Assembly: GCA_023433685.1 (NCBI GenBank)
Contig: JAEYUD010000073.1
Span: 2,750 to 66,749 of the forward strand
Reading direction: 5' to 3'
DNA length: 64,000 nt
Source of the DNA: Bacteroidota bacterium
Lineage (GTDB): Bacteria; Bacteroidota; Ignavibacteria; Ignavibacteriales; Ignavibacteriaceae
The notes under the pieces are model-generated. The model was not told the DNA's origin and searched no databases. It saw nothing but the letters and a program-made list of their open reading frames with translations. This document shows, piece by piece, positions 11,762 through 64,000 of this stretch. The position numbers and the translations under genes are program-made. How positions within the stretch are numbered: position 1 is the stretch's first letter; each line of letters opens with the position of its first letter.

Positions 11762-11788
11762 CGGTGTCTTTCTCCATTATTTTCAAAC

Positions 11789-11821
11789 AAAAAAAAGGCG
11801 CCCGCGTTAAACGGACGCCTT
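11789..11821 (-). terminator. rho-independent terminator after the PorV-like gene
   Basis: On the minus strand the sequence reads AAGGCGTCCGTTTAACGCGGGCGCC followed by TTTTTTTT. It is a GC-rich interrupted stem (797-804 pairs with 812-819) and lies 18 nt after the stop at 11839. Confidence 0.6.
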
Positions 11822-11838
11822 GGATAAAAGTGAAATTA

Positions 11839-12858: not shown

Positions 12859-12892
12859 ATTTAGTTAACTCCTAATTTCTGATTCCAAGTAT

Positions 12893-12915
12893 GGCGGCGG
12901 TTTTCAGCCGCCGCC
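12893..12915 (-). other. GC-only stem-loop between the 1200-aa cargo gene and the PorV-like gene
   Basis: GGCGGCGG (12893-12900), TTTTCAG, then CCGCCGCC (12908-12915) form a perfect 8-bp G/C stem. No U-tract follows on the minus strand, so the function (attenuator, processing or stability element) is unknown. Confidence 0.35.
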
Positions 12916-12924
12916 TACTTCGTG

Positions 12925-15900: not shown

Positions 15901-16527
15901 GTAAACACACCATGAGGTCTCATCGCCGATGAGATCAGGTCTGTCTTCAGTGGGGTCCCATTTGCCGTTTCCATTTTTGTCAACGGGATCATAAACTCCG
16001 TCACCGTCTCCATCATAGAAATAGGCACCAAGTTTAACAGCGTCTCTCCACTCATCCCATGCCGGTGCGAAATCACCTTCCGCGGCTCTCAGAACATATA
16101 TCTGGGCTTTGGAATCATTTCTGCCACCAGCCACAGTTCCCGGAACATAGTCCTGAATACGTGAAGCTGATGCAACGGCGTTGGTCCAGAGAACCCCGTT
16201 GGTTAATCCGCTAAGGAAGAAACCACCGGAGAAGAGGAACACTTTACCACCGAACTTTCCACCGGAGGAGTTAGCACCGGTTTCGGGATCGAAAATGGAT
16301 ACATCACCTACAACACCCGATCTGTTCATCGGGATGTTAAGGTTGTTGATAAACATTCTGTAGGAGTCACCGGCCTTCAGAGCAGGAGCATTATTGCTTC
16401 CCTTTCCTCCGCCTTTGCCTCCTTTGTCGTTGCCTCTGAATCCAAACGACACTAAACCGGCCGCAAGGATAAAGAGGAGGACAAATTCTTTAACGTAATA
16501 TTTTCTATTCATATTCCAAGTTCCCAA
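12925..16527 (-). CDS. very large secreted protein with T9SS type-A C-terminal sorting domain
   Basis: 1200 aa with an N-terminal signal/anchor. The C-terminal ~90 aa match the Por_Secre_tail pattern (VNVYPNPLF...VTIKIYSLSGMLIRTL...WDLQNQDGLRVASGMYLAIV...KFAIIM). There are Asp/Gly Ca-binding-like repeats and a poly-Pro linker. The start may be the internal ATG at 16512. Confidence 0.7.
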   Translation of the reverse strand: MGTWNMNRKYYVKEFVLLFILAAGLVSFGFRGNDKGGKGGGKGSNNAPALKAGDSYRMFINNLNIPMNRSGVVGDVSIFDPETGANSSGGKFGGKVFLFSGGFFLSGLTNGVLWTNAVASASRIQDYVPGTVAGGRNDSKAQIYVLRAAEGDFAPAWDEWRDAVKLGAYFYDGDGDGVYDPVDKNGNGKWDPTEDRPDLIGDETSWCVYSDGTDPALRRFNDVSPQGIEIRQTVFAFNTKSFVGNMMFLRYSILNTGSVADVMDSVYFGVWADPDLGDAYDDLVGCDTILNAGYVYNDGDDTEYGANPPTFLIDFFQGPKAYVAGETYIDVNGNGKWDDGIDTPVDTAHYVGGQVRGIEQFPGAKNLGLSSFVHYMQSHPTHGDPNTRQEARNYMTGKNRIGDALNPCTWSFGEVRGGIDCATVDPKFSYSGNPVTNVGWINNTATDQRQMSNTGPFKLEKGVPVDIVVAYVVGRGNDAKQSITVAKQYSEIAQLLFDSNFPSPPPPPPVKPTMLTGTSSDGLGYIDINFDTYDQLRYNAVDTVLNIDRRIKGFYVTAYRTNSKEAVISGVENSRVIANYQLNDSIKGIYTLFANGNQDLKFAEVLPEFKIDSALYATPSTGRLRIKVTANPFNGDPLVKGQTYYFTVTPYAVNHKAIFLKAPYDQNKQQVYGPAGDYIARSGSVEEYETALLPVVYGENMYVPASEGSIAQSAQGPSSGKVQYVVVDNKKLTGDTYNVEFFKNTAVTSPYSVFYRLTNKTTNTVLADSMKAFDTTLSVVAGKVTDGFLLKVSPSSAALGTATYSGTKWYRNFSAVGALTGVFYTGGDIPTSAKINLPKNAERSYSTYITADRMRRVELRFAPNSGKAYRYVQGFVGTSQARRNASYIYAAGVTAADTVSSRGGQMGKFGEGFVDVPFTAWEVDAKYGTQRQLAVGFIELSTKIPGDVQNSFLKGNPDGNWDPGDSLRYSGEFIVIFDKPYDATGSQKDLTGGDFGTGTPVWADLLTPQTVPAGADTNVYGTAFKSVFRSPWLAGMYVVGMEKTDPNVFYAAGDTLKLPLASYPYVNDIFTFSTQKGGDLTADQKRALFDKVNVYPNPLFAYNSQASYAGNTPDNPYVTFTNLPTDVTIKIYSLSGMLIRTLSTTDKSSPTSPFLRWDLQNQDGLRVASGMYLAIVKSPEYGDKVLKFAIIMPQKQIQRF

Positions 16528-16529
16528 TA

Positions 16530-51964: not shown

Positions 51965-52129
51965 TGTGCGGTCCACTCAAAACGATTGGCTGAAAAGTAA
52001 TTCCTTGAAACGAAATATACCCAAATTGAGTGAAGTGTTCTCTCACCAAACCGATACAGAGGATGGGTAGTATACAAATATTCCAATATTATTCATAAAT
52101 TGCATCATTCTAAAATATCGAATTTTAAT

Positions 52130-54940
52130 ATGAATGAAGCCAAGACCCGTCAGGAGATTATTGACCTGCGGCTTGCCAAAGCAGGCTGGGATGTAAAGAA
52201 CCCTTCTCAGGTTAAATCCGAGATGGGTATAAAGTATGAAAAGTTCGATTCCGTTTCTGAACCGGAGCATACATATGATGGGCAACAATATGCCGATTAT
52301 GCCCTCCTCGGTGATGATGGGTATCCTCTGGCGGTGGTAGAAGCCAAGAAATCCTCCCGTGACGCAAGAATTGGCCAGGAACAGGCAAAACAATACGCGA
52401 AAAACATACAGGCTCAATTAAATTGCAAACTCCCGTTCGTTTTCTACACCAACGGTCATGATATCTATTTCTGGGATACAGAAAAATACCCCCCTCGCAA
52501 AGTTTATGGATTCCCTACAAAAAAAGACCTTGAAAGGTTAATGTTCCTGCGCGAACACGAAAAACCTCTCTCCAAAGAACTTATCAACAGTGACATTAGT
52601 GGCAGACCATATCAAATTGAGGCGATCCGCTCCGTTTTTGAAGGTATCGACCATGCGAAAAGGAAATTCCTTCTGGTTATGGCAACTGGTACCGGAAAAA
52701 CCCGCACCTGCGTCTCGATGATCGATGTGCTGATGAGAACAAACCGGGTTCAGAGGGTTTTGTTCCTCGTTGATAGAATCGCCCTGCGAAATCAGGCTCT
52801 TGATGCCTTCAAGGAGTATTTGCCAAGCGCGCCTCTTTGGCCCCAACGCGACGAAACCAAATTTGCCACGAACCGCCGGGTTTATGTTACAACATACCAG
52901 ACAATGCTGAATATTATTGAAGATGAAGAGCTGAGGTTAAGCCCCCACTTTTTTGATCTGGTGGTCGCAGACGAAAGTCACAGGTCGATCTACAATGTTT
53001 ACAAAAACATATTCGACTATTTTGACGCGCTTCAGGTTGGTTTAACAGCCACCCCCAAGGATGCCCTCGAACGGAATACATTTAAGTTGTTCGAGTGCGA
53101 AGACGGACTCCCGACCTTCGCGTATTCGTATGAAGAGGCGTTAAAAAACAATCCTCCCTATCTCTGCGATTTTGAGGTCCTGAAAATCAGAACAAAGTTT
53201 TTAGAGCTGGGGATAAATAAAGGGACACTTTCGGGTGAGGATCTAAAACGGTTAGCTACAGAAGGGAAAAACCCTGATGAAATAAATTACGCGAACACCG
53301 ATATTGAGAAGAATGTCACAAATCTTGACACCAACACCCTGATCGTCAGGGAGTTTATGCAAGAGTGCATAAAGGATGAAGTTGGAAATCTCCCCGGGAA
53401 AACGATATTTTTTGCAATGACCATTGCTCATGCCCAAAGACTTAAGGAAGTTTTTGACAAACTGTTCCCTCAACATAAAGGTGAAATCGCGAAAGTAATT
53501 GTATCCGAAGACCCCAAGGCTTACGGCAAAGGTGGGTTGCTCGATCAGTTTGTGAATAAAAACTTCCCCCGCATCGCTATCAGTGTAGATATGCTCGATA
53601 CAGGTCTTGATGTCAGGGAGTTGGTTAATCTTGTATTTGCCAAACCTGTCTTTTCTTATACAAAATTTTGGCAGATGATCGGACGGGGAACCCGCTTGCT
53701 TGAACCAAAAAAAATTAAACCCTGGTGCAAAACAAAAGAGAAGTTTTTGATCATCGACTGCTGGGGGAACTTTGACTATTTTAAGATGCAGCCAGGAGGG
53801 AAAACCGAGAATCAATCCGTCCCTTTGCCCGTCAGATTGTTCTTAACCCGTTTGCAAAAATTATTATTGGCGCGGTCATTAAAAAAGACCCTCATCGTCG
53901 AAGATTGCATAACAAAGTTAAAAGCTGAAATCGCCTTACTGCCTCAAAATAATGTGGTTATCCTCGAAGCAAAATCCAAACTTGACAAGATCGACGATAA
54001 TTACTGGTCGGATCTGACGAAAGATAAAACGGAGTTCCTTCAGAAAGAAATAGCCCCTCTTATGCGTACCCGTTCGGGTGAAGATTATGATGCCATGTAT
54101 TTTGAATTGAAGGTACTGAAATATTCGATCGTCAAAATTGATGAATTGCAGGATAAAAAATTAAGGGAAGTGTTGCTTTCCGGGGCGGAAGAAGCAATAA
54201 TCGAAATGGTCGCCGATCTTCCATTGAATGTAAATGTGGTCGCCAAACAGAAGGATTTGATCAATTCTGTAATGACGGGTAATTATCTGCAAAAAGCAGG
54301 GGAGCCGGAACTAAATATCCTGATCGATAAATTGGGTCCTCTGATGAAATTTCGAGACCCTCTAAAACAAAATCAAATTTCTCTCGATCTGCAGGATGTC
54401 ATACATGAAAAAGGCTACATTAAATTTGGTCCCGAACACGAAAGAATCACAGTTCAAAAATATCGTGAACGGGTTGAGGCTCTTATTAAAAACCTTGAAC
54501 AGAAAAATGTCGTACTTCGCAAAATCAAGGCGGGTGAAAGCATAACCGAAGAAGAGATTAATCAACTCGCGGCTACACTTCAAGCAAATGACCCGTATCC
54601 CACGGAGGAAAATTTACAAAAGGCTTACGAAGCAAGAAAAGTCAAGTTTCTCGACCTGATCAAATATATCTTGGGGGTTAGTGGATTGGTAACATTCCCG
54701 GAAAAGGTTACGACCGCGTTTGACGGGTTCATTGCCGAACACAATAATTTGACTACGAAACAGCTCCAATTTATTCAGACTCTTCAATCATTTATTATTG
54801 AAAATGGGGAGTTGTCTAAAAAGGATCTGGTCTCGGAGCCATTCACAAAATTCCACAACAACGGCTTCCTGGGGCTGTTTGACCATCAATTACAACAAGA
54901 AATATTACAATTAACCGACAGAATTTTAAACTATGCTTAA
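52130..54940 (+). CDS. hsdR: Type I restriction enzyme R subunit
   Basis: The track ORF starts at TTG 52100; ATG 52130 gives the typical MNEAKTRQEIIDLRLAKAGW. It has a PD-(D/E)XK nuclease motif (ADYALL...LAVVEAKKS), SF2 motor motifs (VMATGTGKTRT, VVADESHRS, GLTATP) and a C-terminal EcoEI_R_C-like helical domain. Confidence 0.85.
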   Translation: MNEAKTRQEIIDLRLAKAGWDVKNPSQVKSEMGIKYEKFDSVSEPEHTYDGQQYADYALLGDDGYPLAVVEAKKSSRDARIGQEQAKQYAKNIQAQLNCKLPFVFYTNGHDIYFWDTEKYPPRKVYGFPTKKDLERLMFLREHEKPLSKELINSDISGRPYQIEAIRSVFEGIDHAKRKFLLVMATGTGKTRTCVSMIDVLMRTNRVQRVLFLVDRIALRNQALDAFKEYLPSAPLWPQRDETKFATNRRVYVTTYQTMLNIIEDEELRLSPHFFDLVVADESHRSIYNVYKNIFDYFDALQVGLTATPKDALERNTFKLFECEDGLPTFAYSYEEALKNNPPYLCDFEVLKIRTKFLELGINKGTLSGEDLKRLATEGKNPDEINYANTDIEKNVTNLDTNTLIVREFMQECIKDEVGNLPGKTIFFAMTIAHAQRLKEVFDKLFPQHKGEIAKVIVSEDPKAYGKGGLLDQFVNKNFPRIAISVDMLDTGLDVRELVNLVFAKPVFSYTKFWQMIGRGTRLLEPKKIKPWCKTKEKFLIIDCWGNFDYFKMQPGGKTENQSVPLPVRLFLTRLQKLLLARSLKKTLIVEDCITKLKAEIALLPQNNVVILEAKSKLDKIDDNYWSDLTKDKTEFLQKEIAPLMRTRSGEDYDAMYFELKVLKYSIVKIDELQDKKLREVLLSGAEEAIIEMVADLPLNVNVVAKQKDLINSVMTGNYLQKAGEPELNILIDKLGPLMKFRDPLKQNQISLDLQDVIHEKGYIKFGPEHERITVQKYRERVEALIKNLEQKNVVLRKIKAGESITEEEINQLAATLQANDPYPTEENLQKAYEARKVKFLDLIKYILGVSGLVTFPEKVTTAFDGFIAEHNNLTTKQLQFIQTLQSFIIENGELSKKDLVSEPFTKFHNNGFLGLFDHQLQQEILQLTDRILNYA

Positions 54941-56450
54941 CCAGACTCTAAAATCTTCTATCAATAATTTATGGGATAAATTCTGGAGCGGGGGAATTGC
55001 AAATCCTCTCACTGCAATTGAACAAATTTCGTATCTGCTGTTTATGAAACGCTTAGACGAGCTTGATATTAAAAAGAAACAGGATTCAGATTTTACGGGA
55101 GAATCTTATCAATCTCTTTTTGAAGGAGAAAAAGAGGTCCTGAGGTGGAGCCATTTTAGACATATGGAGGGGGGAGAAATGCGAGACCATATTCAGAATA
55201 GTGTCTTTCCCTTCCTTAAAAAATTAGGAAAAGATGATTCTCCTTTTGCAAAACACATGACCAATGCTGTTTTTATCATATCGAAGCCCTCTCTCCTGGT
55301 TGAAGCTGTATCAATTATCGATGAAATTTTTGAAGAGATTTTAAAACAACAGTTGGAAGGGCAGGGTTTTCAGGATACTCAGGGCGACCTCTACGAGTTT
55401 TTACTCTCCGAGATCACTACCGCGGGTAAGCTTGGTCAGTTCAGAACCCCAAGACATATAATTCAACTTATGTGTGAGCTGGTAAACCCAAAGTTGGGCG
55501 ATACCATATGTGACCCCGCGGCAGGAACAGCCGGCTTTTTATTGGGTGCATATCAACATATCATCACACAATTTACGAGTGAGCAAAATCGACAGGTTGA
55601 CGAAAACGGATTGGCGCGCGGTCTGCTTGGCGACAAACTCACGGATGAAAGACAGTGGAATCATCTAAAGGAGAAGACTTTTTACGGTTATGATACCGAT
55701 GAAAGCATGGTTCGCATTGCACTGATGAATCTGATGATGCATGGCATCTCAAACCCAAATATTGAACAGAAGGACACACTCTCCAAATACTATAATGAGG
55801 ACGGGATCTACGATGTGATCATGGCAAATCCCCCGTTCAAGGGGAGCATCGACAAGGGGGATATCAACGAGTCTCTATCGCTGCAAACCACAAAAACCGA
55901 ATTGTTGTTTTTGGACCGGATCATCCATTCCTTAAAAATTGGCGGAAGGGCAGGGGTTATTGTCCCTGACGGAGTTTTATTCGGTTCGAGCAACGCCCAT
56001 AAACAGGCGAGAAAAATGCTCCTTGATGATTGTGAACTTCAGGGGATCATTTCGATGCCGAGTGGAATATTCAAACCTTATGCCGGGGTTAGTACCGCCA
56101 TTCTGGTTTTTGTTAAAGGAGGTGTAACCGAAAAAGTCTGGTTTTATGATATGCAGGCCGATGGCTACAGCCTCGACGACAAGCGGAATAAAATCGATGC
56201 CAACGATCTGAGCGACATCGTTGCCAAATGGAACAAAAGAACTGAACAGACCGAAAATGACAGAGGCAGCAAATTCTTCTTCGTTGAAAAATCAGAAATT
56301 GAAAATAACGACCTCGATTTAAGTATCAACCGGTACAAAGTTACAGAATATAAAGAGGTTGTTTATGAAGACCCGGCGGTGATTTTGGCTAAAATTGAGG
56401 CTCTTGAGAATGAGATCGTTCTGGGGATCAATGAGTTGAAGGGGTTATGA
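54933..56450 (+). CDS. hsdM: Type I restriction-modification N6-adenine DNA methyltransferase subunit
   Basis: 505 aa with an HsdM_N-type N-terminus (LWDKFWSGGIANPLTAIEQISYLLFMKRLDE), the SAM motif DPAAGTAGFL and the catalytic NPPF (IMANPPFKGS). It overlaps hsdR by 8 nt. Confidence 0.9.
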   Translation: MLNQTLKSSINNLWDKFWSGGIANPLTAIEQISYLLFMKRLDELDIKKKQDSDFTGESYQSLFEGEKEVLRWSHFRHMEGGEMRDHIQNSVFPFLKKLGKDDSPFAKHMTNAVFIISKPSLLVEAVSIIDEIFEEILKQQLEGQGFQDTQGDLYEFLLSEITTAGKLGQFRTPRHIIQLMCELVNPKLGDTICDPAAGTAGFLLGAYQHIITQFTSEQNRQVDENGLARGLLGDKLTDERQWNHLKEKTFYGYDTDESMVRIALMNLMMHGISNPNIEQKDTLSKYYNEDGIYDVIMANPPFKGSIDKGDINESLSLQTTKTELLFLDRIIHSLKIGGRAGVIVPDGVLFGSSNAHKQARKMLLDDCELQGIISMPSGIFKPYAGVSTAILVFVKGGVTEKVWFYDMQADGYSLDDKRNKIDANDLSDIVAKWNKRTEQTENDRGSKFFFVEKSEIENNDLDLSINRYKVTEYKEVVYEDPAVILAKIEALENEIVLGINELKGL

Positions 56451-57625
56451 GATCGGAAAGCCCACTAATAAAAATAGGCGATACTTGTAAAGTGTTTAGC
56501 GGAGGAACGCCTCGCCGGGGTATTGAAGGATATTATGGTGGGGACATCCCGTGGGCAAAAATTGGGGATATTGATACTGCCGAAGGCGGTTATCTTTTCA
56601 CGACTAAAGAATCAATAACCCAAGAGGGTCTTAAATCCATCAATAACAAAATATTTAAACAGGATACAATCTTTTTAGCACTTTACGGCTCTGTTGGTAA
56701 GACTGCGATTGCTGGAAGAGAGATGTCAACAAATCAAGCAATTTTGGGTCTCATTCCGAAAAACCCGGAAGTCCTATACTTTAAGTATTTAAAGTACTGG
56801 CTAGAGTTTTCAAAATCTGAACTTATCGGATTAGCACGAGGAGTGGCTCTTCAAAATATATCTGCAACGATCGTGAAAGAATACCCGATTCCCCTCCCCC
56901 CAATCGAAGAACAGCACCGCATCGTAAAAATTCTTGATCTGGCACAATCGCTCATTGAAAAACGGAAACAGGCACTTGCGTATTTGGATGATTATGTTAA
57001 TTCGATTTTCTTTAGCATGTTTATAAATAATTCGGATGAGAAAAATATTCCATTGGTAAGCTTAGAAAAGTTAGCTCTTAAAATTACTGATGGTGTTCAT
57101 GCTAAACCAAAATATACAGAAACTGGGATTCCTTTTATTTCAGTAAAAAATATCACGACCACAAAACTTTTATTCGATGATTGTAAGTTCATTTCAGTAG
57201 CTGATCACCAAATTTTTACCAAGCGTTGTAAAGCTGAATTTAACGATATCTTATATACTAAGGTTGGAGCAACATATGGGAGGGCTTGCATAGTTGATAC
57301 AAAAAACGAATTTAGTTTATATGTAAGCGTATCCTTAATAAAACCAAATAAAGATTTAATAGACCCAGCATATCTTAAAGCAGTTCTAAATAGTAGTTTT
57401 GTGAAGAGACAAGCTGATAAATCAGTAAAGGGTGCAGGCGTACCAGATTTGCACTTGGTTGAAATTAAAAAATTTACAATTCCACTACCTCCCATGCAAC
57501 TTCAGCAAAAGTTTGGGAAATTAATTTTCGGAGTTGATTCACTTAAACAAAAAATGCAATCCCAATTAAAAGAACTGGAAGACAATTTTCAGGCAGAGTT
57601 GCAGAGGGCGTTTAGGCAAGATTAA
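56447..57625 (+). CDS. hsdS: Type I restriction-modification specificity subunit
   Basis: 392 aa with two target-recognition halves. Each half ends in a conserved-region repeat (YPIPLPPIEEQHRIVKILD and FTIPLPPMQLQQKFGKLI). The ATGA overlaps hsdM. Confidence 0.85.
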   Translation: MRSESPLIKIGDTCKVFSGGTPRRGIEGYYGGDIPWAKIGDIDTAEGGYLFTTKESITQEGLKSINNKIFKQDTIFLALYGSVGKTAIAGREMSTNQAILGLIPKNPEVLYFKYLKYWLEFSKSELIGLARGVALQNISATIVKEYPIPLPPIEEQHRIVKILDLAQSLIEKRKQALAYLDDYVNSIFFSMFINNSDEKNIPLVSLEKLALKITDGVHAKPKYTETGIPFISVKNITTTKLLFDDCKFISVADHQIFTKRCKAEFNDILYTKVGATYGRACIVDTKNEFSLYVSVSLIKPNKDLIDPAYLKAVLNSSFVKRQADKSVKGAGVPDLHLVEIKKFTIPLPPMQLQQKFGKLIFGVDSLKQKMQSQLKELEDNFQAELQRAFRQD

Positions 57626-57707
57626 TTTGCAAGAAATATAAAAGGTTCATTTAAACTTTGTTCTTACACTAAGAATATTTCAAATATTTAATGTTAGGTG
57701 AAGTAAT

Positions 57708-58766
57708 ATGTTGGATTTAACCAAAGTGTTTTCATTTCATGCTACTATTCAGGATAGAATCGTTTCAAGAGAAAGCAAAACGCTGGAATTCAAGGAAACA
57801 TTTAATTGGAGTTCAAAGGATAAATATGCTAAAAGCATAGCTGCCTTTGCAAATAGTATCGGGGGAATACTTGTTTTTGGAGTGAAAGATAACCCGCATG
57901 ATTTCGTAGGACTTCAAAGTGAAAATTTTGAGAGATTCGATGAGTCCAGAATTACAGAATATTTGAATAGTGTATTTGCCCCTGAGATAATTTTTGAGAA
58001 ATTTGTTTACACAGTCAATCGAAAAAATGCCGGTATTGTAGTTGTACACCAGGCAACGAACAAACCTGTGGTTTGCATTAAAAATGATGGGGATCTAAAA
58101 GAGTCAGATATCTACTTTCGTTATAGTGCCAGAACCGAGAGAATTAAATATCCAGAACTTCGGCAATTAATTGAAGATATTAAAGAAAAAGAACGGTTCC
58201 TTTATAAACGGATTTTAGAGAGAATATCAGAGGTCGGTGTGGAAAATGCTGCAATATTCGATATTCTCAAAGGGGAAGTAAAAGGGCAAGCAGGTTCCTT
58301 TGTGATTGATAAGACGTTACTTCCAAAATTAAAATTTATTAATCAAGGTACATTCAAAGAAGGTGGAATTCCCGTGTTGGAGTTAAAAGGGGAAGTTTCT
58401 CCAATTGACCGAAAAACAACGGATGTGAGCGTTGTTGAGGTAAAAACTCGAATCACGAATGACCCTAATGCCCCTGTAGCTAAGTTGATAGAGCCAGATG
58501 AAATTTGTCCTCATCGTGCAACTGAAACCGTAAATTTAATAAATAGTCGAATTGGCGAACAAAACAAAATCAAAATGTATGACCTGACAGTCATCAGGAC
58601 ATTATTCGATATTGATGAAAAACAAGAATTTTATTATCATCCAATATCTGGCTCATCACAGTATAGCGATGCCTTTATTGATTGGGTTGTTGAATCTTTT
58701 AACAATGACAACAACTTTTTTTCAGAAAATAGAGAAAAATTTAGACAGATTAAAAAATCTGCGTAG
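57708..58766 (+). CDS. AlbA_2 (Schlafen-like 'divergent AAA') domain protein with unassigned C-terminal half
   Basis: 352 aa. Residues ~20-140 carry the AlbA_2 signature (RESKTLEFKETFNW...KSIAAFANSIGGILVFGVKDNPHDFVGL...AGIVVVHQA...IYFRYSARTERI). The C-terminal ~190 aa show no HATPase or HTH pattern that I recognise. Confidence 0.65.
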   Translation: MLDLTKVFSFHATIQDRIVSRESKTLEFKETFNWSSKDKYAKSIAAFANSIGGILVFGVKDNPHDFVGLQSENFERFDESRITEYLNSVFAPEIIFEKFVYTVNRKNAGIVVVHQATNKPVVCIKNDGDLKESDIYFRYSARTERIKYPELRQLIEDIKEKERFLYKRILERISEVGVENAAIFDILKGEVKGQAGSFVIDKTLLPKLKFINQGTFKEGGIPVLELKGEVSPIDRKTTDVSVVEVKTRITNDPNAPVAKLIEPDEICPHRATETVNLINSRIGEQNKIKMYDLTVIRTLFDIDEKQEFYYHPISGSSQYSDAFIDWVVESFNNDNNFFSENREKFRQIKKSA

Positions 58767-58872
58767 ATTTTATCAGGGTTAATCAGAAATTGGGATACCG
58801 TGATTTTAAATATTTATATGAAGATTCCTAATTGTTAAAACAAATCTTAAATTCAACAAAAGGTGGTCAAAT

Positions 58873-60258
58873 ATGCGTTTAGAAAATTGGTTTATTACAA
58901 ATCCTGACACTTCACAACAAGAAGTGTTGAAAGTTCCTATTACTCAAAATTTGGTAGTTAAGGGCGCTGCTGGCAGCGGAAAAACGAACATGGCAATCTA
59001 CCGTGCAAACCAAGCAAATGATAACACATTTGTCATTGTGGTTTATACGATAGCTTTAGCAAAAATGATTCGTTACGGACTGAATGAGCTCGGACTTGAC
59101 AAAGACAGAGTTGTCCACGAATGGTCTTGGATTAACAGAGGTGTAGGCGTTTCTGGTGATGTATTTTGTTTGGCAGGTAGTAGCCCCGACAGATTAAATG
59201 GTGATTTGCTGATTCTTAAAACCTCCGAAGGATTAAAATTCTTTATATCACGGGAGAAGCATGACGAGTGTTTGCAAAATGGGAAATTCTTAAATTACTC
59301 GGTTTCCAATATTTCAAATCCTTTAGAAGTCTCTATTGATTTTGATGATTGGGTTGATGATAAATTCTACTACACATTTTATCGCAGAGCAAGATGGTTC
59401 AAACAAATACAACTTACTCAATTTAGATTTGACCTAAACGATGAAACAAAATTTGTTTTCATTCCTGCGGGCTATTTATACAGAGATAAAGTTGTTGTCA
59501 ATCATGTAATCGTTGACGAAGGACAAGACTTTTCACTCCATACATATAGTAATTATTTCATTCCCGAAGCTAGAAAATCTATAACTATATTTGGCGATAC
59601 AAACCAGCGTATTTACAAAGATCGTTTCTGCATGATAGAGGATGTTGCAAGTAATTTCAAATTTCCAATTCTCAATCTTGGATTCAACTATCGAGTCCCA
59701 AGAACAATCGCAAAAGTCGCCCAAACGATACCTCAACCACATGTTGATCTGCTAACAAACAATCGGAAAAACAACGGTAATAGTGATTACCCATCATTTC
59801 CAAAGCCTATAATCAAAAAATGCAACTCCGAAGAAGAAGAAATGCAATTCATTTTGAACAGAATCCGAACAGAGGGGATGGATGATGTTGCAATTTTATT
59901 GCCAAGAGAGGATGATGTGATGAAGCTTCACAAATTTTTCTCCGCACATAACATAGGCACGCAAGTTCGGCTATCTATTGATATCGGTGTTACCCCATTC
60001 GGCAATCGTAAATTCAAGCGAATTGATACACTTGATTTTACAAACCATGATCTGCCCGCAATTCTAACATATCACGCCGGAAAGGGAACAGAATTTGACA
60101 ATGTTTTCATTCCTTTTGCCGATGACGATAAGGGCTTAGAGCGAAATCCATTTTATGTGGCAGTAACTCGTTCGAGCTATCGAGTTTTCATAACTTACTC
60201 GCGTAGACTCACAAACTTATTGAAGAATATAAATTCTAATGATGTAATCTTACAGTAA
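58873..60258 (+). CDS. compact SF1 (UvrD/Rep-type) helicase-like ATPase
   Basis: 461 aa with motif I GAAGSGKT (aa 31-38), II VDEGQDF (213-219), III FGDTNQRIY, IV FNYRVPRTI, V TYHAGKGTEFDNVFI and VI YVAVTRSSYRVFI. There is an unassigned ~170-aa insert between motifs I and II. An AGGTGG SD lies upstream. Confidence 0.8.
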   Translation: MRLENWFITNPDTSQQEVLKVPITQNLVVKGAAGSGKTNMAIYRANQANDNTFVIVVYTIALAKMIRYGLNELGLDKDRVVHEWSWINRGVGVSGDVFCLAGSSPDRLNGDLLILKTSEGLKFFISREKHDECLQNGKFLNYSVSNISNPLEVSIDFDDWVDDKFYYTFYRRARWFKQIQLTQFRFDLNDETKFVFIPAGYLYRDKVVVNHVIVDEGQDFSLHTYSNYFIPEARKSITIFGDTNQRIYKDRFCMIEDVASNFKFPILNLGFNYRVPRTIAKVAQTIPQPHVDLLTNNRKNNGNSDYPSFPKPIIKKCNSEEEEMQFILNRIRTEGMDDVAILLPREDDVMKLHKFFSAHNIGTQVRLSIDIGVTPFGNRKFKRIDTLDFTNHDLPAILTYHAGKGTEFDNVFIPFADDDKGLERNPFYVAVTRSSYRVFITYSRRLTNLLKNINSNDVILQ

Positions 60259-60259
60259 T

Positions 60260-62086
60260 ATGGCTAAGAAAAAATCAACAACTCGTTTCTGGTTGCCGAT
60301 AAATCTATGGAACTTAAACGAAATTTTTACCTCTGAGAGCATATCTCCCATTTCGTTTTATTCAGTTCGTGACTTTGGCAACCCAGTAAATCGCAACGAA
60401 GAAATATTTGAAGATACCAATTTCCTCGTGATGTTTGATGCGCCAGTTGCAAGTGAGATTATCATTGAAATTTATCCAGAACTGTTAAATCGAACAGCAA
60501 TGCTTGACACAAAAGATGGCTACAGCGAATACTATAAAACAATATATTTGCGAAACGAACTGTTCAAAGTGCATTTTAAGAATGAAGAAAAATTAAATGA
60601 GTTCATAAATCAACAATTGATGCTCCTGGAAGTTAAAACTGTTAATAAATATAAAACGGAACACTTTGTTGTTTCTAGAAACAAATTAAAACAATCAAAC
60701 AAAGTCGCATTTCAACCAAGTATTCTTTCGGAGCAACGCGAAATAGAGCCATTTTTTGATAAGGCTTTTAATCAGATCAAAGGACTGATTTATGGATATG
60801 TTATCGGTGCGCTTGGCACTTTAGGAGAGAACGAGCAAGGATTAGTTTCTGATTTAAATAACCTCAAAAATACAATCGGTGGCGTTCATACCGACATTGC
60901 TTTGTCTGACCAATATTCAAACTTATGGCTTCTTAATGTTAAAAAACAAATCCGTGATTGCGAAGATAAATTCAAAAAGCAATTCGACAACAAAACCTCT
61001 GATGTATTCAGTACCCTTACTTTAAGATTGCAGGAAGTTGATAATCTGAATAAAATGCGTTGCGAGGTACTTTTAAGACAAAAAAGTCCAAGTAACAAAC
61101 GAGATTATATAACAGAACAAGAAAATTTAGAACAAGCTCGAAGAGAAGTATATGAGTACGAATGTGAGCACAATATTGCACCTTTGAAAGAAGAAATTGA
61201 AAATATAAAACAGGAAGAAAAAAATAGAGGAGAGGCAAAAGGTAAGATTCGAGACTATTACAAAAAAGACGACAATCCCGAGAAATATTATCGCAAACGA
61301 GAATTGAAGCGTATTATAGAGGAGTATGAGAAGAGTGATAGTGAATACAAAGAATTAAAAAACAAAGTTAATATTATTGAAAATAGGATAAAAAACCTCC
61401 AAGAAGGGGGAACTCCCTTTGACGCTTCAATTAACGAGCAATTCAACCGCATTACCGAACACTTGAATGATTTAGTAAAACGAGCTAATAACTATTTCCT
61501 TTCAAAAAATAACAAAGAAAGCGAATTGCCAGATATTGCATTTCAAATTGATTTAGATTTGTTGACCGGTCACTATCATGAAAAGATGAAAGCATACAAC
61601 GATTTTGCAATTCAACTACCAAATTCTTTGTCTAACAAGCTTTCAGAACGGGAAATTGAGCTATTGAAAATTTCGTTAAATGCAGTTTTATCATCTCCTC
61701 AGGGACGACTCGGGAATTATTCAGAAGAAAATATTTTGGAAATCATTGCAGAAGTTGGAAAACATTTACCTGAAAGCGATTTCAAGAAAACTTTACGAGA
61801 TTATTACGCATACCGCTCTGGTAAATCGGACAGTTTTGAATTTCCGAAAAACGATGTTCTTGCAAACATTATTGTGTTTTTCATGAAATTGCAAGGTCAT
61901 GACCAAATCAACAAACTGCTGATAACAAAAGGCATTCAGCACAAGCAAATTGCATTTTTACTTTACGGTGCTTACACAGGTTTTGCAAATTTTCCCAAAA
62001 CTTTTACCAATCTGATTTTTAACGGTGAAAACAAGAGACTTCTTTATTGGATCGATGATTATTTGTTTAATAGCTATTTAAAATAA
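60260..62086 (+). CDS. 608-aa protein of unknown family (globular N-terminus, long K/E-rich coiled-coil centre, helical C-terminus)
   Basis: This is the only long ORF at the locus. Its start is 1 nt after the helicase stop. The central segment is ~aa 230-400 (e.g. EQENLEQARREVYEYECEHNIAPLKEEIENIKQEEKNRGEAKGK, YRKRELKRIIEEYEKSDSEYKELKNKVNIIENRIKNLQE). I found no P-loop or nuclease motif. The coding call is solid; the function is unknown. Confidence 0.75.
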   Translation: MAKKKSTTRFWLPINLWNLNEIFTSESISPISFYSVRDFGNPVNRNEEIFEDTNFLVMFDAPVASEIIIEIYPELLNRTAMLDTKDGYSEYYKTIYLRNELFKVHFKNEEKLNEFINQQLMLLEVKTVNKYKTEHFVVSRNKLKQSNKVAFQPSILSEQREIEPFFDKAFNQIKGLIYGYVIGALGTLGENEQGLVSDLNNLKNTIGGVHTDIALSDQYSNLWLLNVKKQIRDCEDKFKKQFDNKTSDVFSTLTLRLQEVDNLNKMRCEVLLRQKSPSNKRDYITEQENLEQARREVYEYECEHNIAPLKEEIENIKQEEKNRGEAKGKIRDYYKKDDNPEKYYRKRELKRIIEEYEKSDSEYKELKNKVNIIENRIKNLQEGGTPFDASINEQFNRITEHLNDLVKRANNYFLSKNNKESELPDIAFQIDLDLLTGHYHEKMKAYNDFAIQLPNSLSNKLSEREIELLKISLNAVLSSPQGRLGNYSEENILEIIAEVGKHLPESDFKKTLRDYYAYRSGKSDSFEFPKNDVLANIIVFFMKLQGHDQINKLLITKGIQHKQIAFLLYGAYTGFANFPKTFTNLIFNGENKRLLYWIDDYLFNSYLK

Positions 62087-62750
62087 AATTATGCATAGTG
62101 TCCAAGATTTTTTCTAATCTTTTTAAATGAACCTAGTAAAATTGATTTTTTCTTTCCGCAATACTTTGATCAGACTTCCGGTAAAAAGTCTTGAGATGTC
62201 AGGTAATGAAGTGCGCTGAGTAGTTTTCAACTCTTAAATAGTATTACATTTATTTTGGTTACATATTTAAAGTCTCAACCTGGATTAAGAGTAACTTTCG
62301 AAACCGGGTGTATCCCTTTCTGAATAGCTCTTCGATATTGTGTAGAATGTTTTAATATTTGGAAATTTTTTGACTGTACCCAAAAATATGGTTCCTAAGC
62401 TCCTACCAAACTTTAGATCCCTACCAATTACACAAAACTACTGACACTCCCTTTTCTTCCTAACACCTGAAGATTTTTTTTTAAACCGCTTTCGTGCTAA
62501 ATTGGAGGAGAGAAACCTAAAACTTCTAAACGCTAAATTACTAAGAATGAAGGCTAATCACTATGACGGACCTTCTACATTATCTGTTTAATAATTTATT
62601 CCGTTTTCCGCTGAACCAATACACTCCTTTAGATTAGATAAAAGTTAAATATTGACAATAATTTTCTCCTAAAGGAAACTAAATTAAAGTTAAATCAACG
62701 ACATTCAATATGAAATAAAATGTAATTATAAAAAATTAGACAAGGCTTAT

Positions 62751-64000
62751 ATGGACCCAATTATCTCCTCAATTGTTCTCACATCAATTACTGAAATTAC
62801 AAAGACGATAATATCTGATTATGTAAAGCCCCAGTTATTGGCCTTTAAACAATATTTTAATGAAAAACAGATTGAAGATGGAGATGTTAGTAAATATTTG
62901 GAAAAGAATTTGTCTGATTATCTTACCAGAACTTATGATTCACTTTCCTTGTCGGATACTTTAATAGGCGAAACCGCTGCTGTGCGACTTGAAGATGTGT
63001 ACACACCTCTTCAAATCGTAGATTTACAACAAAAGACGCAAATTGAAATTAAATATGGGTCAGAGATTCTAAATTTAGAGAGAACAAGAATCATGTTTAT
63101 TAGTGGTGGGGGTATGGGGAAAACCACTCTCTTAAAGATGATAGGGTTATCTTGCATAGAAAAATCGCTTTCATGCCCCATCCTTATTAATCTTAGGAAA
63201 CTGACAACTTCAAACGGTGTATTGGATGAGATTTATCAACAATTTGACCAGATTACAAAAACAGTAAATAAGGAAATTATTCTGCAATTGCTTGAATCGG
63301 GGCGATTTGTAGTTCTATTTGATGGAATTGATGAAATTGCATTTTCGAATAAAAGAATAATAATTGAGGATTTAAAGAATTTCATCTCCAAGACGTCGTC
63401 AAACATTTTTGTAATTGCTTCACGAGAAGATAGAATTTTGACTTCGTTTTCCGACTTCCAAAGGTATTCGATAAAACCATTCCAGAAGGAACAGGCTGAC
63501 AGCTTGTTAAATAAATATGACAAACTTACAAGCTGTTCAATCGCTCCACAAGTATCGAGAGAATTAGGTTACAACAACTACTTATTTAGAACGCTTATTT
63601 CTAACCCAATACTTGTAACAATGGTTTACAATGTGTATTATCACACAAAGAAATTACCTTCCGAAACGCAGGAACTGATAAACAGAATATTGGAAATCTA
63701 CATAAAAGAGCATGATTATTCAAAATTAGGGTTCATAAGACCACATATAAGTGAGCTCGGTGTTGGATGTGTTAAAGGATTGATGACCTGGCTTGCATTT
63801 TTTTCCTTAAAAAAAGGATCACCACTTTTCACTTCAAACGAACTAAGAGACCAAGTAGAGCATTACTTTAAAAGTCAAAGCATGAATTGTAAAACAGAGG
63901 AATTGATAGATGAACTACTTATTTCTTTCCCAGTCTTCCAAAAAGATGGATTGGATTTAAGATGGCAGCATAAAATATTTCAAGATTATTTTTGCGCAGA
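62751..64000 (+). CDS. NACHT-domain STAND NTPase (5' part; continues beyond window end)
   Basis: Not in the ORF track because there is no stop in the window. My translation from ATG 62751 is open for 416 codons: MDPIISSIVLTSITEITKTII...LEDVYTPLQIV...RIMFISGGGMGKTTLLK (Walker A, aa 118-125)...RFVVLFDGIDEI (Walker B)...FVIASRED...SNPILVTMV...RWQHKIFQDYFCA. This is the canonical order of NACHT motifs. Confidence 0.8.
   Translation, partial: MDPIISSIVLTSITEITKTIISDYVKPQLLAFKQYFNEKQIEDGDVSKYLEKNLSDYLTRTYDSLSLSDTLIGETAAVRLEDVYTPLQIVDLQQKTQIEIKYGSEILNLERTRIMFISGGGMGKTTLLKMIGLSCIEKSLSCPILINLRKLTTSNGVLDEIYQQFDQITKTVNKEIILQLLESGRFVVLFDGIDEIAFSNKRIIIEDLKNFISKTSSNIFVIASREDRILTSFSDFQRYSIKPFQKEQADSLLNKYDKLTSCSIAPQVSRELGYNNYLFRTLISNPILVTMVYNVYYHTKKLPSETQELINRILEIYIKEHDYSKLGFIRPHISELGVGCVKGLMTWLAFFSLKKGSPLFTSNELRDQVEHYFKSQSMNCKTEELIDELLISFPVFQKDGLDLRWQHKIFQDYFCA

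What the first reader, a model, noticed from the sequence alone, without database searches (positions are those of the whole stretch)
58873..62086. Translationally coupled SF1 helicase plus 608-aa coiled-coil protein of no recognisable family: candidate undescribed two-gene defence module
Seen in sequence: two + strand ORFs are separated by a single nucleotide (stop 60258, ATG 60260). They are preceded by their own 106-nt AT-rich spacer with an AGGTGG SD, and they lie inside the ~30% GC block between a Type I R-M and a NACHT NTPase. ORF1 has every SF1/UvrD motif (I, II, III, IV, V, VI), no nuclease domain, and an unassignable ~170-aa insert between motifs I and II (aa ~45-210). ORF2 has no Walker A and no PD-(D/E)XK, HNH, HEPN, TIR, SIR2 or TOPRIM signature that I can find. 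It has a ~150-aa globular N-terminus (FWLPINLWNLNEIFTSESISPISFYSVRDFGNP...), a ~170-aa K/E-rich heptad-like centre, and a helical C-terminus ending in an aromatic/hydrophobic patch (AFLLYGAYTGFANFPKTFTNLIF). Established knowledge: defence genes cluster in islands, and SF1/SF2 helicases are recurrent sensor/motor parts of multi-gene systems such as Gabija GajB, Hachiman HamB and DISARM. Inference: the partner here does not match the partners I know. GajA is an OLD/TOPRIM ATPase and HamA is DUF1837. As far as I recall, the DUF2290 partner of the Rst helicase system is much shorter. The pair may therefore be a new system or a very divergent member of a known one.
Basis: partly seen in the sequence, partly recalled or inferred. 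Interest (0 to 1): 0.85.

Follow-up and report, generated by a model that had tools for sequence, protein, structure and literature searches.

The report
Helicase plus DarT-like protein gene pair
Two tightly linked genes, a stripped-down DNA helicase and an unnamed 608-residue protein whose front end appears to have the fold of a DNA ADP-ribosylating toxin, form a widespread and undescribed module that is probably an anti-phage system, though no function has been tested.

Summary
ORF1 (58873-60258, 461 aa) and ORF2 (60260-62086, 608 aa) are real genes one nucleotide apart.

ORF1 is a UvrD/HelD-type SF1 ATPase with all motifs. Its supposed "insert" sits at the position of UvrD domain 1B. What it actually lacks is domain 2B.

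The pair is obligate. In 79 of 80 genomes with an ORF2 homologue, an ORF1-like helicase lies directly upstream on the same strand, and 75 of 78 junctions measure -25 to +15 nt. The AlbA_2 neighbour is not conserved.

The ORF2 family has 739 clusters at 50% identity. It has no name, no PADLOC, NCBIfam or PHROG model, and no paper that I could find.

A confident AlphaFold model of that domain has DarT DNA ADP-ribosyltransferases as its top PDB matches. It also gives recurrent, in-register, sub-threshold hits to Pfam 2CompART.

In 50 of 80 loci the core pair sits between a methyltransferase-like gene (with or without PIN or NERD) and the radical-SAM-like DUF1848. These parts are shared with defence-associated UG35/UG25 reverse-transcriptase systems. 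The window's clade has only the two genes.

The closest validated analogue is DarHTG (2026). Defence function and catalysis remain untested.

The parts
58767..58872 (+). 106-nt AT-rich spacer between the AlbA_2 gene and ORF1. AGGTGG lies at 58861-58866, 6 nt before the ATG.
   Evidence: Read directly. The sigma-70 promoter and terminator scan found no more than chance and is uninformative.
58873..60258 (+). ORF1: 461-aa SF1A (UvrD/HelD/helicase IV-like) ATPase with no 2B domain and no nuclease domain.
   Evidence: Pfam UvrD_C 4.5e-13, UvrD_C_2, UvrD-helicase and AAA_19. NCBIfam HelD_BACSU 1.7e-15. PADLOC partial GajB 1.4e-16 and RTasHel 3.8e-14. PDB HelD/helicase IV 1e-5 and UvrD ~1e-4. PHROG DNA helicase 3e-20.
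58963..58986 (+). Walker A / motif I, GAAGSGKT (aa 31-38, K37).
   Evidence: G31, A33, S35, G36 and K37 are 100% conserved, and G34 98%, in 77 partner-linked helicases.
59125..59487 (+). Clade-specific divergent segment of ORF1 (aa ~85-205), at the position of UvrD domain 1B.
   Evidence: Gap fraction is 0.33-0.72 across the family alignment. The motif I to motif II spacing equals UvrD's. Long-clade helicases are only 340-380 aa.
59515..59529 (+). Motif II, DEGQD (aa 215-219).
   Evidence: D215, E216, Q218 and D219 are 100% conserved.
60256..60262 (+). Stop codon, one nucleotide, start codon (TAA-T-ATG): tight coupling of ORF1 and ORF2.
   Evidence: Across the family, 75 of 78 junctions are -25 to +15 nt, 33 have a 1-5 nt gap and 11 have a 4-nt overlap.
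60260..62086 (+). ORF2: 608-aa protein of an unnamed family (739 clusters at 50% identity).
   Evidence: AlphaFold2 model pLDDT 88.3, pTM 0.77. No PADLOC, NCBIfam or PHROG family.
60260..60679 (+). ORF2 N-terminal alpha/beta domain (aa 1-140): ART-like (DarT-like) fold. Invariant or near-invariant residues: N18, E26, S27, S29, P30, Y34, R37, G40, Y96, E124, K126, Y131.
   Evidence: Foldseek against PDB: the top five hits are DarT (7omw E 3.9e-3, prob 0.99; 7omx prob 1.00, TM 0.48), and DarT1, Thermosipho DarTG and the TreTu ART toxin also appear. Pfam 2CompART at E 7.7e-4 for the domain alone, aligned in register in three separate queries. Conservation.
60746..60904 (+). Conserved helical segment directly after the N-domain (aa ~163-215), with D167, N171, K174, G175 and N204.
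   Evidence: These positions are 89-100% conserved across 77 partners. Modelled as helices 163-185 and 190-215.
60917..61639 (+). Variable K/E-rich helical middle (aa ~220-460), modelled as successive 20-30-residue helices. It is largely replaced or shortened in the long clade.
   Evidence: secondary structure. (gaps in the distant clade). Only spurious coiled-coil hits in Pfam, PADLOC and Foldseek.
61640..62086 (+). Conserved C-terminal helical domain (aa ~461-608) with the motif G570...G574-F-A-N-x-P-K-T-F-T.
   Evidence: G574, F575 and T583 are invariant, and A576, N577, P579, K580, T581 and F582 are at least 90% conserved. G570 is 96% and G574 100% conserved across clades.

Best explanation
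ORF1 and ORF2 are the minimal two-gene core of a widespread conflict (probably anti-phage) system. It is found mainly in Bacteroidota.

ORF1 is a catalytically intact UvrD-type SF1 motor without the 2B domain. ORF2 is its obligate partner. It carries an N-terminal DarT-like ADP-ribosyltransferase-fold domain as the likely effector, joined through a variable helical scaffold to a conserved C-terminal helical domain.

Proposed mechanism (inferred, not shown): the two proteins form a complex. The helicase loads on or tracks invading or replicating DNA and exposes single strands. This releases or positions the ART-like domain, which uses NAD+ to ADP-ribosylate nucleic acid (as DarT does) or a protein target, and that blocks replication of the invader. 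The helical and C-terminal parts keep the effector autoinhibited, since no antitoxin gene is present.

In most relatives the same core is flanked by a SAM-methyltransferase-like protein (with or without a PIN or NERD nuclease) and by the radical-SAM-like DUF1848. This suggests the fuller system also modifies, or reverses a modification on, nucleic acid.

Shown here: the genes, the motifs, the obligate synteny, the family size, the fold similarity and the cassette. Inferred: complex formation, ART catalysis, the target and the defence role.
For: (1) Obligate pairing. 79 of 80 loci have the helicase directly upstream on the same strand, and the single exception is at a contig edge. 75 of 78 junctions are -25 to +15 nt. 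Helicase and partner divergence are correlated (Spearman rho 0.83, n=78).

(2) The helicase looks active. Motifs Q, I, Ia, II, III, IV, V and VI are 97-100% conserved.

(3) ART-like N-domain. The domain model has pLDDT 78 and pTM 0.78. DarT structures take Foldseek PDB ranks 1-5, 9 and 11, with probabilities 0.94-1.00 for the top four, while non-ART hits have probability 0.03 or less. Viral-library hits reach E 2e-4 and include Bacillus phage G proteins and IIV6 422L. Phage G encodes at least 10 ARTs and an iridovirus family is DarT-like, according to PMC9503650. 2CompART is the only Pfam family that recurs, and it is always in register (E 7.7e-4, 0.007, 0.1).

(4) An invariant polar set (N18, E26, S27, S29, Y34, R37, Y96, E124, K126) is typical of an active or ligand-binding site. 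N18, R37, Y96 and E124 occur in the same order as DarT N19, R51, Y71 and E160. This correspondence is by eye only.

(5) Defence context. The window has Type I R-M, AlbA_2, the pair, NACHT and then an IS3 transposase. Neighbours in the two-gene clade include GmrSD, PtuA-like, HEC-06, CARF-HEPN and PglX/type IIG genes.

(6) Guilt by association. ORF1 hits PADLOC RTasHel, the cassette's MT-like gene hits RT_UG35 and DUF1848 hits RTasDUF1848. UG35 and UG25 defence-associated reverse transcriptases pair with exactly these modules (PMC9226505).

(7) Precedent. DarHTG is a DarT plus a 2B-less UvrD helicase, both needed for anti-phage activity (PMC13069673).
Against: - No experiment has been done.
- The ART assignment is sub-threshold by sequence. 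2CompART scores 20.1 bits against a cut-off of 27. hhalign against a 120-sequence DarT profile is not significant (Prob 0.3%, E 0.18), and the 3-sequence DarT profile also gave nothing.
- No Foldseek PDB hit reaches E 1e-3, and TM is only 0.44-0.48.
- Long-clade members and their consensus do not hit 2CompART.
- The canonical beta-1 His or Arg of ARTs has no evident counterpart. Beta-1 in this family reads [WY][LI]P[IT].
- No Macro, NADAR or ARH antitoxin-like gene lies near the pair in the window. That is unusual for a DarT-type toxin.
- The defence-neighbourhood evidence has no statistical control, and several neighbours are housekeeping genes.
- There are no homologues in PLSDB plasmids or PHROGs, and only one 'unverified' phage record.
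Confidence: 0.45

Rival explanations
1. The pair is a conflict or defence module, but the ART-like N-domain does not catalyse ADP-ribosylation. It is a degenerate ART fold used to sense or bind a ligand, for example a nucleotide, an NAD-derived signal, a modified base or a phage protein. The output would then be the helicase's own action on DNA or RNA polymerase, or recruitment of other factors such as the PIN or NERD nucleases of the extended cassette.
For: No beta-1 His or Arg is evident, and the sequence link to ART families is sub-threshold. No antitoxin gene is adjacent. In 50/80 loci dedicated nuclease or enzyme genes (PIN, NERD, DUF1848) accompany the core and could be the real effectors. 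The best NCBIfam match for the helicase is the RNA polymerase recycling motor HelD.
Against: The two-gene clade has no other candidate effector, yet it is conserved from 23% to 87% identity. The invariant E124, R37 and Y96 follow the order of the DarT catalytic residues. DarHTG shows that the helicase + DarT logic works with catalysis.
Confidence: 0.25
2. The pair is a housekeeping or accessory nucleic-acid transaction complex, not immunity. Examples would be a HelD-like RNA polymerase recycling factor or a repair/recombination helicase with a scaffold partner.
For: The best named helicase hits are HelD, UvrD and helicase IV. Some neighbours are housekeeping genes such as OEP and acetolactate synthase.
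Against: Distribution is patchy. Only 105 stretches in the scan of 185,579 species genomes encode a relative. The window copy lies in a low-GC island next to R-M, NACHT and an IS3 element. The module is associated with PIN, NERD and DUF1848 genes and with accessory modules of the UG35/UG25 reverse transcriptases. The HelD hits cover only the core motor, not HelD's specific domains.
Confidence: 0.1
3. The pair belongs to a mobile genetic element and serves the element, for example in maintenance or addiction, anti-defence, or exclusion of competitors. It would not be host defence as such.
For: An IS3 transposase lies just beyond the island. One full cassette sits on a faecal scaffold deposited as a bacteriophage (MT835661.1). 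The GC content is anomalous.
Against: There are no hits in 72,556 plasmids, no PHROG family, and only a single 'UNVERIFIED' phage record. No integrase or conjugation genes were seen recurrently among neighbours.
Confidence: 0.1

Closest known systems
DarHTG (Liu-DS3; DarT + DarH helicase + DarG3), NAR 2026, PMC13069673
   Same: A UvrD-family helicase that lacks the 2B domain is genetically coupled to a DarT-type ART. In DarHTG, both the helicase ATP site and the ART active site are required for anti-phage activity. The paper reports the system as frequent in Bacteroidota.
   Different: DarHTG has a bona fide DarT and a third gene, the ADP-ribosylglycohydrolase-like antitoxin DarG3. Here the ART-like domain is not detectably PF14487. 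It is fused to about 470 residues of helical scaffold, and no antitoxin-like gene is adjacent. I could not compare ORF1 with DarH directly, because no DarH sequence was available.
DarT / DarTG toxin-antitoxin (PF14487, DNA ADP-ribosyltransferase)
   Same: DarT structures are the best structural matches of the ORF2 N-domain. The beta1-alpha1 pattern is similar, with DarT 'YHITHIDNLKGIL' against the family's 'YIPTSTLNFNNIL'. Conserved N, R, Y and E residues occur in the same order.
   Different: There is no significant profile-profile similarity. DarT H13 has no counterpart, there is no Macro or NADAR partner, and ORF2 is three times longer.
Pfam PF22546 2CompART (2-Component system ADP-ribosyltransferase domain)
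   Same: It is the only Pfam family that recurs for the N-domain, and it always aligns from profile position 2 at beta-1 (E 7.7e-4, 0.007, 0.1).
   Different: All scores are below the gathering cut-off (at most 20.1 bits against 27). Long-clade members do not hit it. I could not establish what the '2-component system' is from the held literature. If it is an ART plus an SF1 helicase, this family is a divergent branch of it.
Gabija (GajA OLD/TOPRIM + GajB UvrD-like helicase)
   Same: It is a two-gene module with a UvrD-like SF1 helicase. ORF1 gives partial hits to several GajB models (best 1.4e-16).
   Different: The partner is not GajA. It shows no ATPase or TOPRIM signal. The GajB hits cover only fragments of the core motor.
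Class 1 UG/Abi defence-associated RT systems UG35 (MTase-RT + UvrD-like helicase) and UG25 (MTase-RT + DUF1848), PMC9226505
   Same: The accessory modules are shared: ORF1 with RTasHel, the cassette's MT-like domain with the RT_UG35 N-terminal MTase, and DUF1848 with RTasDUF1848.
   Different: There is no reverse-transcriptase domain anywhere in the window pair or in the cassette. The MT-like gene is fused to PIN or NERD, or stands alone. The ART-like partner is not part of the UG systems as described.

Membership tests
ART superfamily (ADP-ribosyltransferase fold) | Split beta-sheet ART fold | tested here: met
   In the AlphaFold2 N-domain model, DarT structures take Foldseek PDB ranks 1-5, 9 and 11 (probabilities 0.94-1.00 for the top four), and the ART toxin TreTu is at rank 7. 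TM is 0.44-0.48, normalised over 190 residues that include a linker and helix outside the domain. No hit reaches E 1e-3. Met at fold level with moderate confidence.
ART superfamily (ADP-ribosyltransferase fold) | Catalytic triad H-Y-E or R-S-E (beta-1 His/Arg, beta-2/3 Tyr/Ser, beta-5 Glu) | tested here: inconclusive
   Candidates Y96 and E124 (plus R37 for DarT R51) are 94-100% conserved and in the right order. Beta-1 ([WY][LI]P[IT]) has no His or Arg. No residue-level structural superposition was possible because model coordinates cannot be exported.
Pfam PF22546 2CompART | Score at or above the gathering threshold (27 bits) | tested here: not met
   The best score is 20.1 bits (E 7.7e-4) for the window N-domain. 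Hits are recurrent and in register but always sub-threshold.
DarT (PF14487 / DUF4433) | Sequence-profile membership | tested here: not met
   There is no Pfam hit. hhalign of 322 family N-domains against 120 DarT sequences gives Prob 0.33%, E 0.18. The 3-sequence DarT profile gives nothing.
DarTG / DarHTG | Adjacent ADP-ribosyl-hydrolase antitoxin (Macro, NADAR or ARH-like DarG) | tested here: not met
   Precomputed Pfam annotation for every gene on the source contig around the pair shows Peptidase_M3, HsdR, HsdM, HsdS, AlbA_2, NACHT and an IS3 transposase only. This was not checked exhaustively in the other 80 loci.
DarHTG | DarH-type UvrD helicase lacking domain 2B | tested here: inconclusive
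   ORF1 lacks about 150 residues at the UvrD 2B position, as described for DarH. No DarH sequence was available for a direct comparison.
Gabija | GajA (OLD-family ATPase + TOPRIM nuclease) partner | tested here: not met
   ORF2 has no PADLOC GajA hit and no ATPase or TOPRIM Pfam hit.
Hachiman / Rst helicase-DUF2290 | HamA (DUF1837) or DUF2290 partner | tested here: not met
   Neither family appears among the ORF2 Pfam or PADLOC hits at E <= 1.
UG35/UG25 DRT systems | Reverse-transcriptase domain protein | tested here: not met
   No RT domain is present in ORF1 or ORF2, or in the cassette's MT-like proteins (Pfam). The only link is similarity of the MTase domain to RT_UG35.
SF1A UvrD/Rep/PcrA/HelD-like helicases (ORF1) | Motifs Q, I, Ia, II, III, IV, V and VI | tested here: met

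The most novel reading that the evidence does not exclude
The helicase/ART-like core defines a new family of helicase-gated nucleic-acid ADP-ribosylating (or otherwise base-modifying) immune systems that work without a separate antitoxin. In its four-gene form, the methyltransferase-like protein and the radical-SAM-like DUF1848 would write or erase a previously unknown nucleic-acid modification.
Probability: 0.25. Interest if true: 0.85.

Novelty: new variant of a known kind. Interest (0 to 1): 0.68.

Why it matters
If the reading is right, this would be a large defence family that has not been described. It has about 740 clusters at 50% identity and is common in gut and environmental Bacteroidota, a phylum whose immune repertoire is poorly sampled by E. 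coli-centred screens.

It would extend the newly validated "helicase + DarT" logic (DarHTG) to a much more divergent ART-like effector. That effector is fused to its own scaffold and lacks an antitoxin, which raises the question of how such a toxin is held in check.

The link to a conserved cassette with a radical-SAM-like DUF1848 and a methyltransferase-like protein gives these orphan domains a testable context. The same modules accompany UG35/UG25 reverse transcriptases, so this may point to a new nucleic-acid modification chemistry.

Tried and rejected
- Full-length ORF2 Foldseek against PDB gave only non-significant coiled-coil matches. I therefore modelled the N-domain separately.
- Single-member Pfam scans gave 2CompART in only 2 of 28 members.
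- A word-indexed profile search with the N-domain returned only fragments of the same family and no annotated relatives.
- The exhaustive profile search returned 739 hits, but the 150 listed were all family members, so it gave no bridge to a named family.
- hhalign against DarT, with both a 3-sequence and a 120-sequence profile, was not significant.
- An N-domain profile search against PDB sequences gave only a chance PAF1 hit.
- PHROGs gave nothing for ORF2.
- Plasmid searches gave nothing. Phage searches gave one unverified record.
- The promoter and terminator scan found no more than chance.
- Literature searches for 2CompART, PF22546, ART + helicase and DUF1848 found no description of the pair. 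The Aravind ART review could not be retrieved under the PMC id I recalled.
- I rejected AlbA_2 as a third component (1/80 loci, weak).
- I rejected Gabija, Hachiman, Rst-DUF2290 and JetC/ZorA. The last two are coiled-coil noise at E 0.03-0.08.

Full report

Yes. The ORF listing gives ORF1 at 58873..60258 (+, 461 aa) and ORF2 at 60260..62086 (+, 608 aa). The junction reads TAA-T-ATG. The upstream spacer is 106 nt, with AGGTGG six nucleotides before the ATG. GC drops to 0.31-0.37 from about 56.5 kb, against 0.40-0.50 upstream.

On the source contig the gene order is: Peptidase_M3, hsdR, hsdM, hsdS, AlbA_2, ORF1, ORF2, a 691-aa NACHT protein (window 62751 to beyond 64000), then an IS3 transposase.

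**2. ORF1**

ORF1 is an SF1A ATPase of the UvrD/HelD/helicase IV type.
- Pfam: UvrD_C 4.5e-13, plus UvrD_C_2, UvrD-helicase and AAA_19.
- NCBIfam: HelD_BACSU 1.7e-15, a partial match.
- PDB sequences: HelD/helicase IV 1e-5 and UvrD about 1e-4.
- PADLOC: partial GajB (1.4e-16) and RTasHel (3.8e-14).

In an alignment of 77 partner-linked helicases, the Q motif, Walker A (K37), Ia, II (D215, E216, Q218, D219), III, IV, V and VI (R433) are 97-100% conserved. The motor is therefore presumably active.

ORF1 11-45 aligns with UvrD 10-43 and ORF1 210-334 with UvrD 215-340. The motif I to motif II spacing is thus the same as in UvrD, where motif Ia and domain 1B lie (established knowledge of UvrD/PcrA domain structure). 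In contrast, ORF1 334 to 392 corresponds to UvrD 340 to 551. ORF1 therefore lacks about 150 residues where domain 2B sits. The aa ~85-205 segment is clade-specific. It is gapped in about 60-70% of the family, whose helicases are only 340-380 aa long.

**3. ORF2 and its family**

ORF2 has 117 close-to-distant homologues in the word-indexed search. All are "hypothetical" and none has a Pfam domain. An exhaustive HMMER search of 1.84 billion representatives with an N-domain profile found 739 clusters at E <= 1e-3, of which 671 are at <= 1e-10. In the 150 best hits listed, the domain starts within the first 11 residues, and the proteins are mostly 650-780 aa. The window's 608-aa form therefore belongs to a minority clade.

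ORF2 hits no PADLOC, NCBIfam or PHROG family.

AlphaFold2 with a 70-sequence alignment gives a confident model (pLDDT 88.3, pTM 0.77). It has an alpha/beta domain at aa 1-140, then helices of about 20-30 residues through to aa 607.

Conservation is concentrated in three places:
- the N-domain: N18, E26, S27, S29, P30, Y34, R37, G40, Y96, F106, E124, K126, Y131;
- the following helices: D167, N171, K174, G175, N204;
- a C-terminal motif: G570...G574-F-A-N-x-P-K-T-F-T.

The K/E-rich middle is variable and largely missing from the long clade.

**4. What is the N-terminal domain?**

Three lines of evidence converge on an ART fold.

(a) Pfam 2CompART ("2-Component system ADP-ribosyltransferase domain") is hit by the full protein at E 0.026 and by the isolated domain at E 7.7e-4 (20.1 bits, residues 10-119 against profile positions 2-105 of 120). 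It is also hit by the window-clade consensus (E 0.007) and by a mid-clade member (E 0.1). The hits always start at profile position 2, and every other Pfam hit is a scattered one-off. All scores are below the 27-bit cut-off, and only 2 of 28 full-length members hit it on their own.

(b) A separate model of residues 1-190 (pLDDT 78, pTM 0.78) was searched with Foldseek against the PDB.
- DarT structures take ranks 1-5, 9 and 11: Thermus DarT 7omw (E 3.9e-3, prob 0.99), 7omx (prob 1.00, TM 0.48), 7omv and 7omy, then M. tuberculosis DarT, E. coli DarT1 and Thermosipho DarTG.
- The ART toxin TreTu is at rank 7.
- Unrelated folds have probability 0.03 or less.
- The TM-scores are normalised over 190 residues, which include a linker and a helix that are not part of the domain.

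(c) The viral structure library gives hits down to E 2e-4. They include Bacillus phage G Gp532 and Gp610 and iridovirus IIV6 422L. All are unnamed. According to PMC9503650, phage G encodes at least 10 ARTs and an iridovirus/baculovirus family is DarT-like.

The evidence against is as follows. Profile-profile comparison with DarT is not significant. The 3-sequence profile gave nothing, and 322 N-domains against 120 verified PF14487 sequences gave Prob 0.33% and E 0.18. No Foldseek PDB hit reaches 1e-3.

I verified the DarT sequences from the PDB and took catalytic residues from PMC11543638. By eye, and along the (non-significant) hhalign path, DarT "IYHITHIDNLKGIL" lies on the family's "LYIPTSTLNFNNIL". 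The family's N18, R37, Y96 and E124 follow the order of DarT N19, R51, Y71 and E160. DarT's NAD-binding H13 falls on a hydrophobic residue.

My estimates: an ART-derived fold about 0.75-0.8, and catalytic competence about 0.45.

**5. Is the pair a module?**

Yes, strictly. A scan of one genome per species (185,579 species) found 105 stretches encoding relatives, and 80 loci were kept. In 79 of these, an ORF1-like helicase lies immediately upstream on the same strand. The exception (L034) has the match at base 17 of its contig.

The junctions are tight. 75 of 78 are -25 to +15 nt, 33 have gaps of 1-5 nt and 11 have 4-nt overlaps. Helicase and partner divergence from the window proteins are correlated (Spearman rho 0.83, n=78).

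Hosts are mainly Bacteroidota: Bacteroidales, Prevotella, Parabacteroides, Flavobacterium, Pedobacter, Mucilaginibacter, Algoriphagus and Ancylomarina. There are a few Ignavibacteria, Desulfovibrio, Clostridium, Oscillospiraceae and Anaerotignum loci.

AlbA_2 is not conserved next to the pair (1 weak hit in 80 loci).

**6. A larger cassette**

Clustering the flanking genes revealed two recurrent neighbours.

Downstream is DUF1848 (PF08902, E about 1e-92). It also hits PADLOC RTasDUF1848 at 1e-42. It carries a C-terminal CxxxCxxC motif with weak radical-SAM matches to MiaB and PA0069.

Upstream, abutting the helicase, is a protein of about 265-720 aa. Its core gives weak but consistent class-I SAM-methyltransferase hits, all sub-threshold. 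In different loci it is fused to PIN_4 (L037), fused to NERD (L065), or stands alone (L050). One member hits PADLOC RT_UG35 through this methyltransferase-like region.

By tblastn, DUF1848 is present in 51 of 80 loci, the MT-like gene in 53, and both in 50. The window and its clade have neither.

Mestre et al. (PMC9226505) report that UG35 reverse transcriptases are fused to an N-terminal methylase and associate with a UvrD-like helicase. They report that UG25 reverse transcriptases are also methylase-fused and associate with DUF1848. Three of the four cassette components therefore belong to a pool of modules already tied to defence-associated reverse transcriptases. The ART-like partner is the component that is new.

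**7. Context**

Among 57 genes flanking 18 two-gene loci there are strong hits to GmrSD_N (2 genes), PtuA-like AAA_15/21 (2), HEC-06 (2), CARF-HEPN (2) and a PglX/type IIG enzyme. These are mixed with housekeeping genes. This is suggestive, but it has no control.

There are no homologues in 72,556 plasmids. Among phage records, only one hit appeared: an unannotated, "UNVERIFIED" human faecal scaffold that carries the whole four-gene cassette.

**8. Comparison with known systems**

The nearest validated analogue is DarHTG (PMC13069673, 2026). It consists of DarT, a UvrD-family helicase lacking domain 2B, and an ARH-like antitoxin. [quoted passage not shown] The system is reported as most frequent in Thermodesulfobacteriota and Bacteroidota.

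The pair here shares the 2B-less UvrD motor and a DarT-like fold. It fails DarT sequence membership, has no antitoxin gene, and embeds the ART-like domain in a 608-aa scaffold protein. It works like a DarHTG-type system at best and is not a member.

It is also not Gabija (no GajA), Hachiman or Rst-DUF2290 (neither partner family is present), or a UG/DRT system (no reverse transcriptase).

**9. Verdict**

The pair is a real, widespread and unnamed two-gene module. It is most likely a defence or conflict system in which an SF1 motor controls an ART-like effector. It is also the reduced form of a four-gene cassette.

Novelty: a new variant of a known kind (helicase-coupled ART defence). Interest: 0.68.

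The main uncertainties are whether the ART-like domain is catalytic, what it targets, and whether Pfam's uncharacterised "2-component ART system" already denotes a relative of this family.

Noticed in passing
L013:5879-10814, L037:5099-13398, L065:4802-11472 and 47 other loci (not in the window): In 50 of 80 loci the helicase-partner core is flanked upstream by a methyltransferase-like gene, variably fused to PIN_4 or NERD, and downstream by the radical-SAM-like DUF1848. This forms a conserved four-gene cassette that I did not find described in the literature.
   Followed up: partly
window 57708-58766 (+): A 352-aa protein with an N-terminal Schlafen/AlbA_2 domain (2e-20) and a C-terminal EC042_2821 restriction-endonuclease-like domain (2.8e-5). 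Its C-terminus matches PADLOC candidate PDC-S19 (2e-8). It is not conserved next to the pair, so it is probably an independent defence gene.
   Followed up: partly
window 52100-57625 (+): A complete Type I restriction-modification operon: hsdR 946 aa, hsdM 505 aa and hsdS 392 aa. hsdR/hsdM overlap by 8 nt and hsdM/hsdS by 4 nt.
   Followed up: no
window 62751-64000 (+), continuing beyond the window: A NACHT/STAND NTPase gene (691 aa on the source contig; Walker A GGGMGKTT). On the source contig it is followed by an IS3-family transposase (rve + HTH_Tnp_1), which marks the edge of the low-GC island.
   Followed up: partly
window ~56500-64000: GC content drops from 0.40-0.50 to 0.31-0.37, starting inside hsdS. 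This is consistent with a horizontally acquired island.
   Followed up: no
L084 (MT835661.1) 11698-17488: A human faecal scaffold deposited as 'UNVERIFIED: Bacteriophage sp.' carries the full four-gene cassette: MT-like, helicase, a 769-aa partner and DUF1848. I did not check whether the scaffold is truly viral.
   Followed up: partly
L002 (JAVEPM010000231.1): A 3.2-kb contig binned as the archaeon 'Methanolobus sp.' carries a partner 73% identical (and a helicase fragment 86% identical) to the window proteins. This is more likely binning contamination from a Bacteroidota organism than an archaeal copy.
   Followed up: no
L022 8001-9758 (Prevotella ihumii): The partner reading frame is interrupted. 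The ORF is 449 aa and starts 418 nt after the helicase, and it lacks the N-terminal motif. It may be a pseudogene.
   Followed up: no
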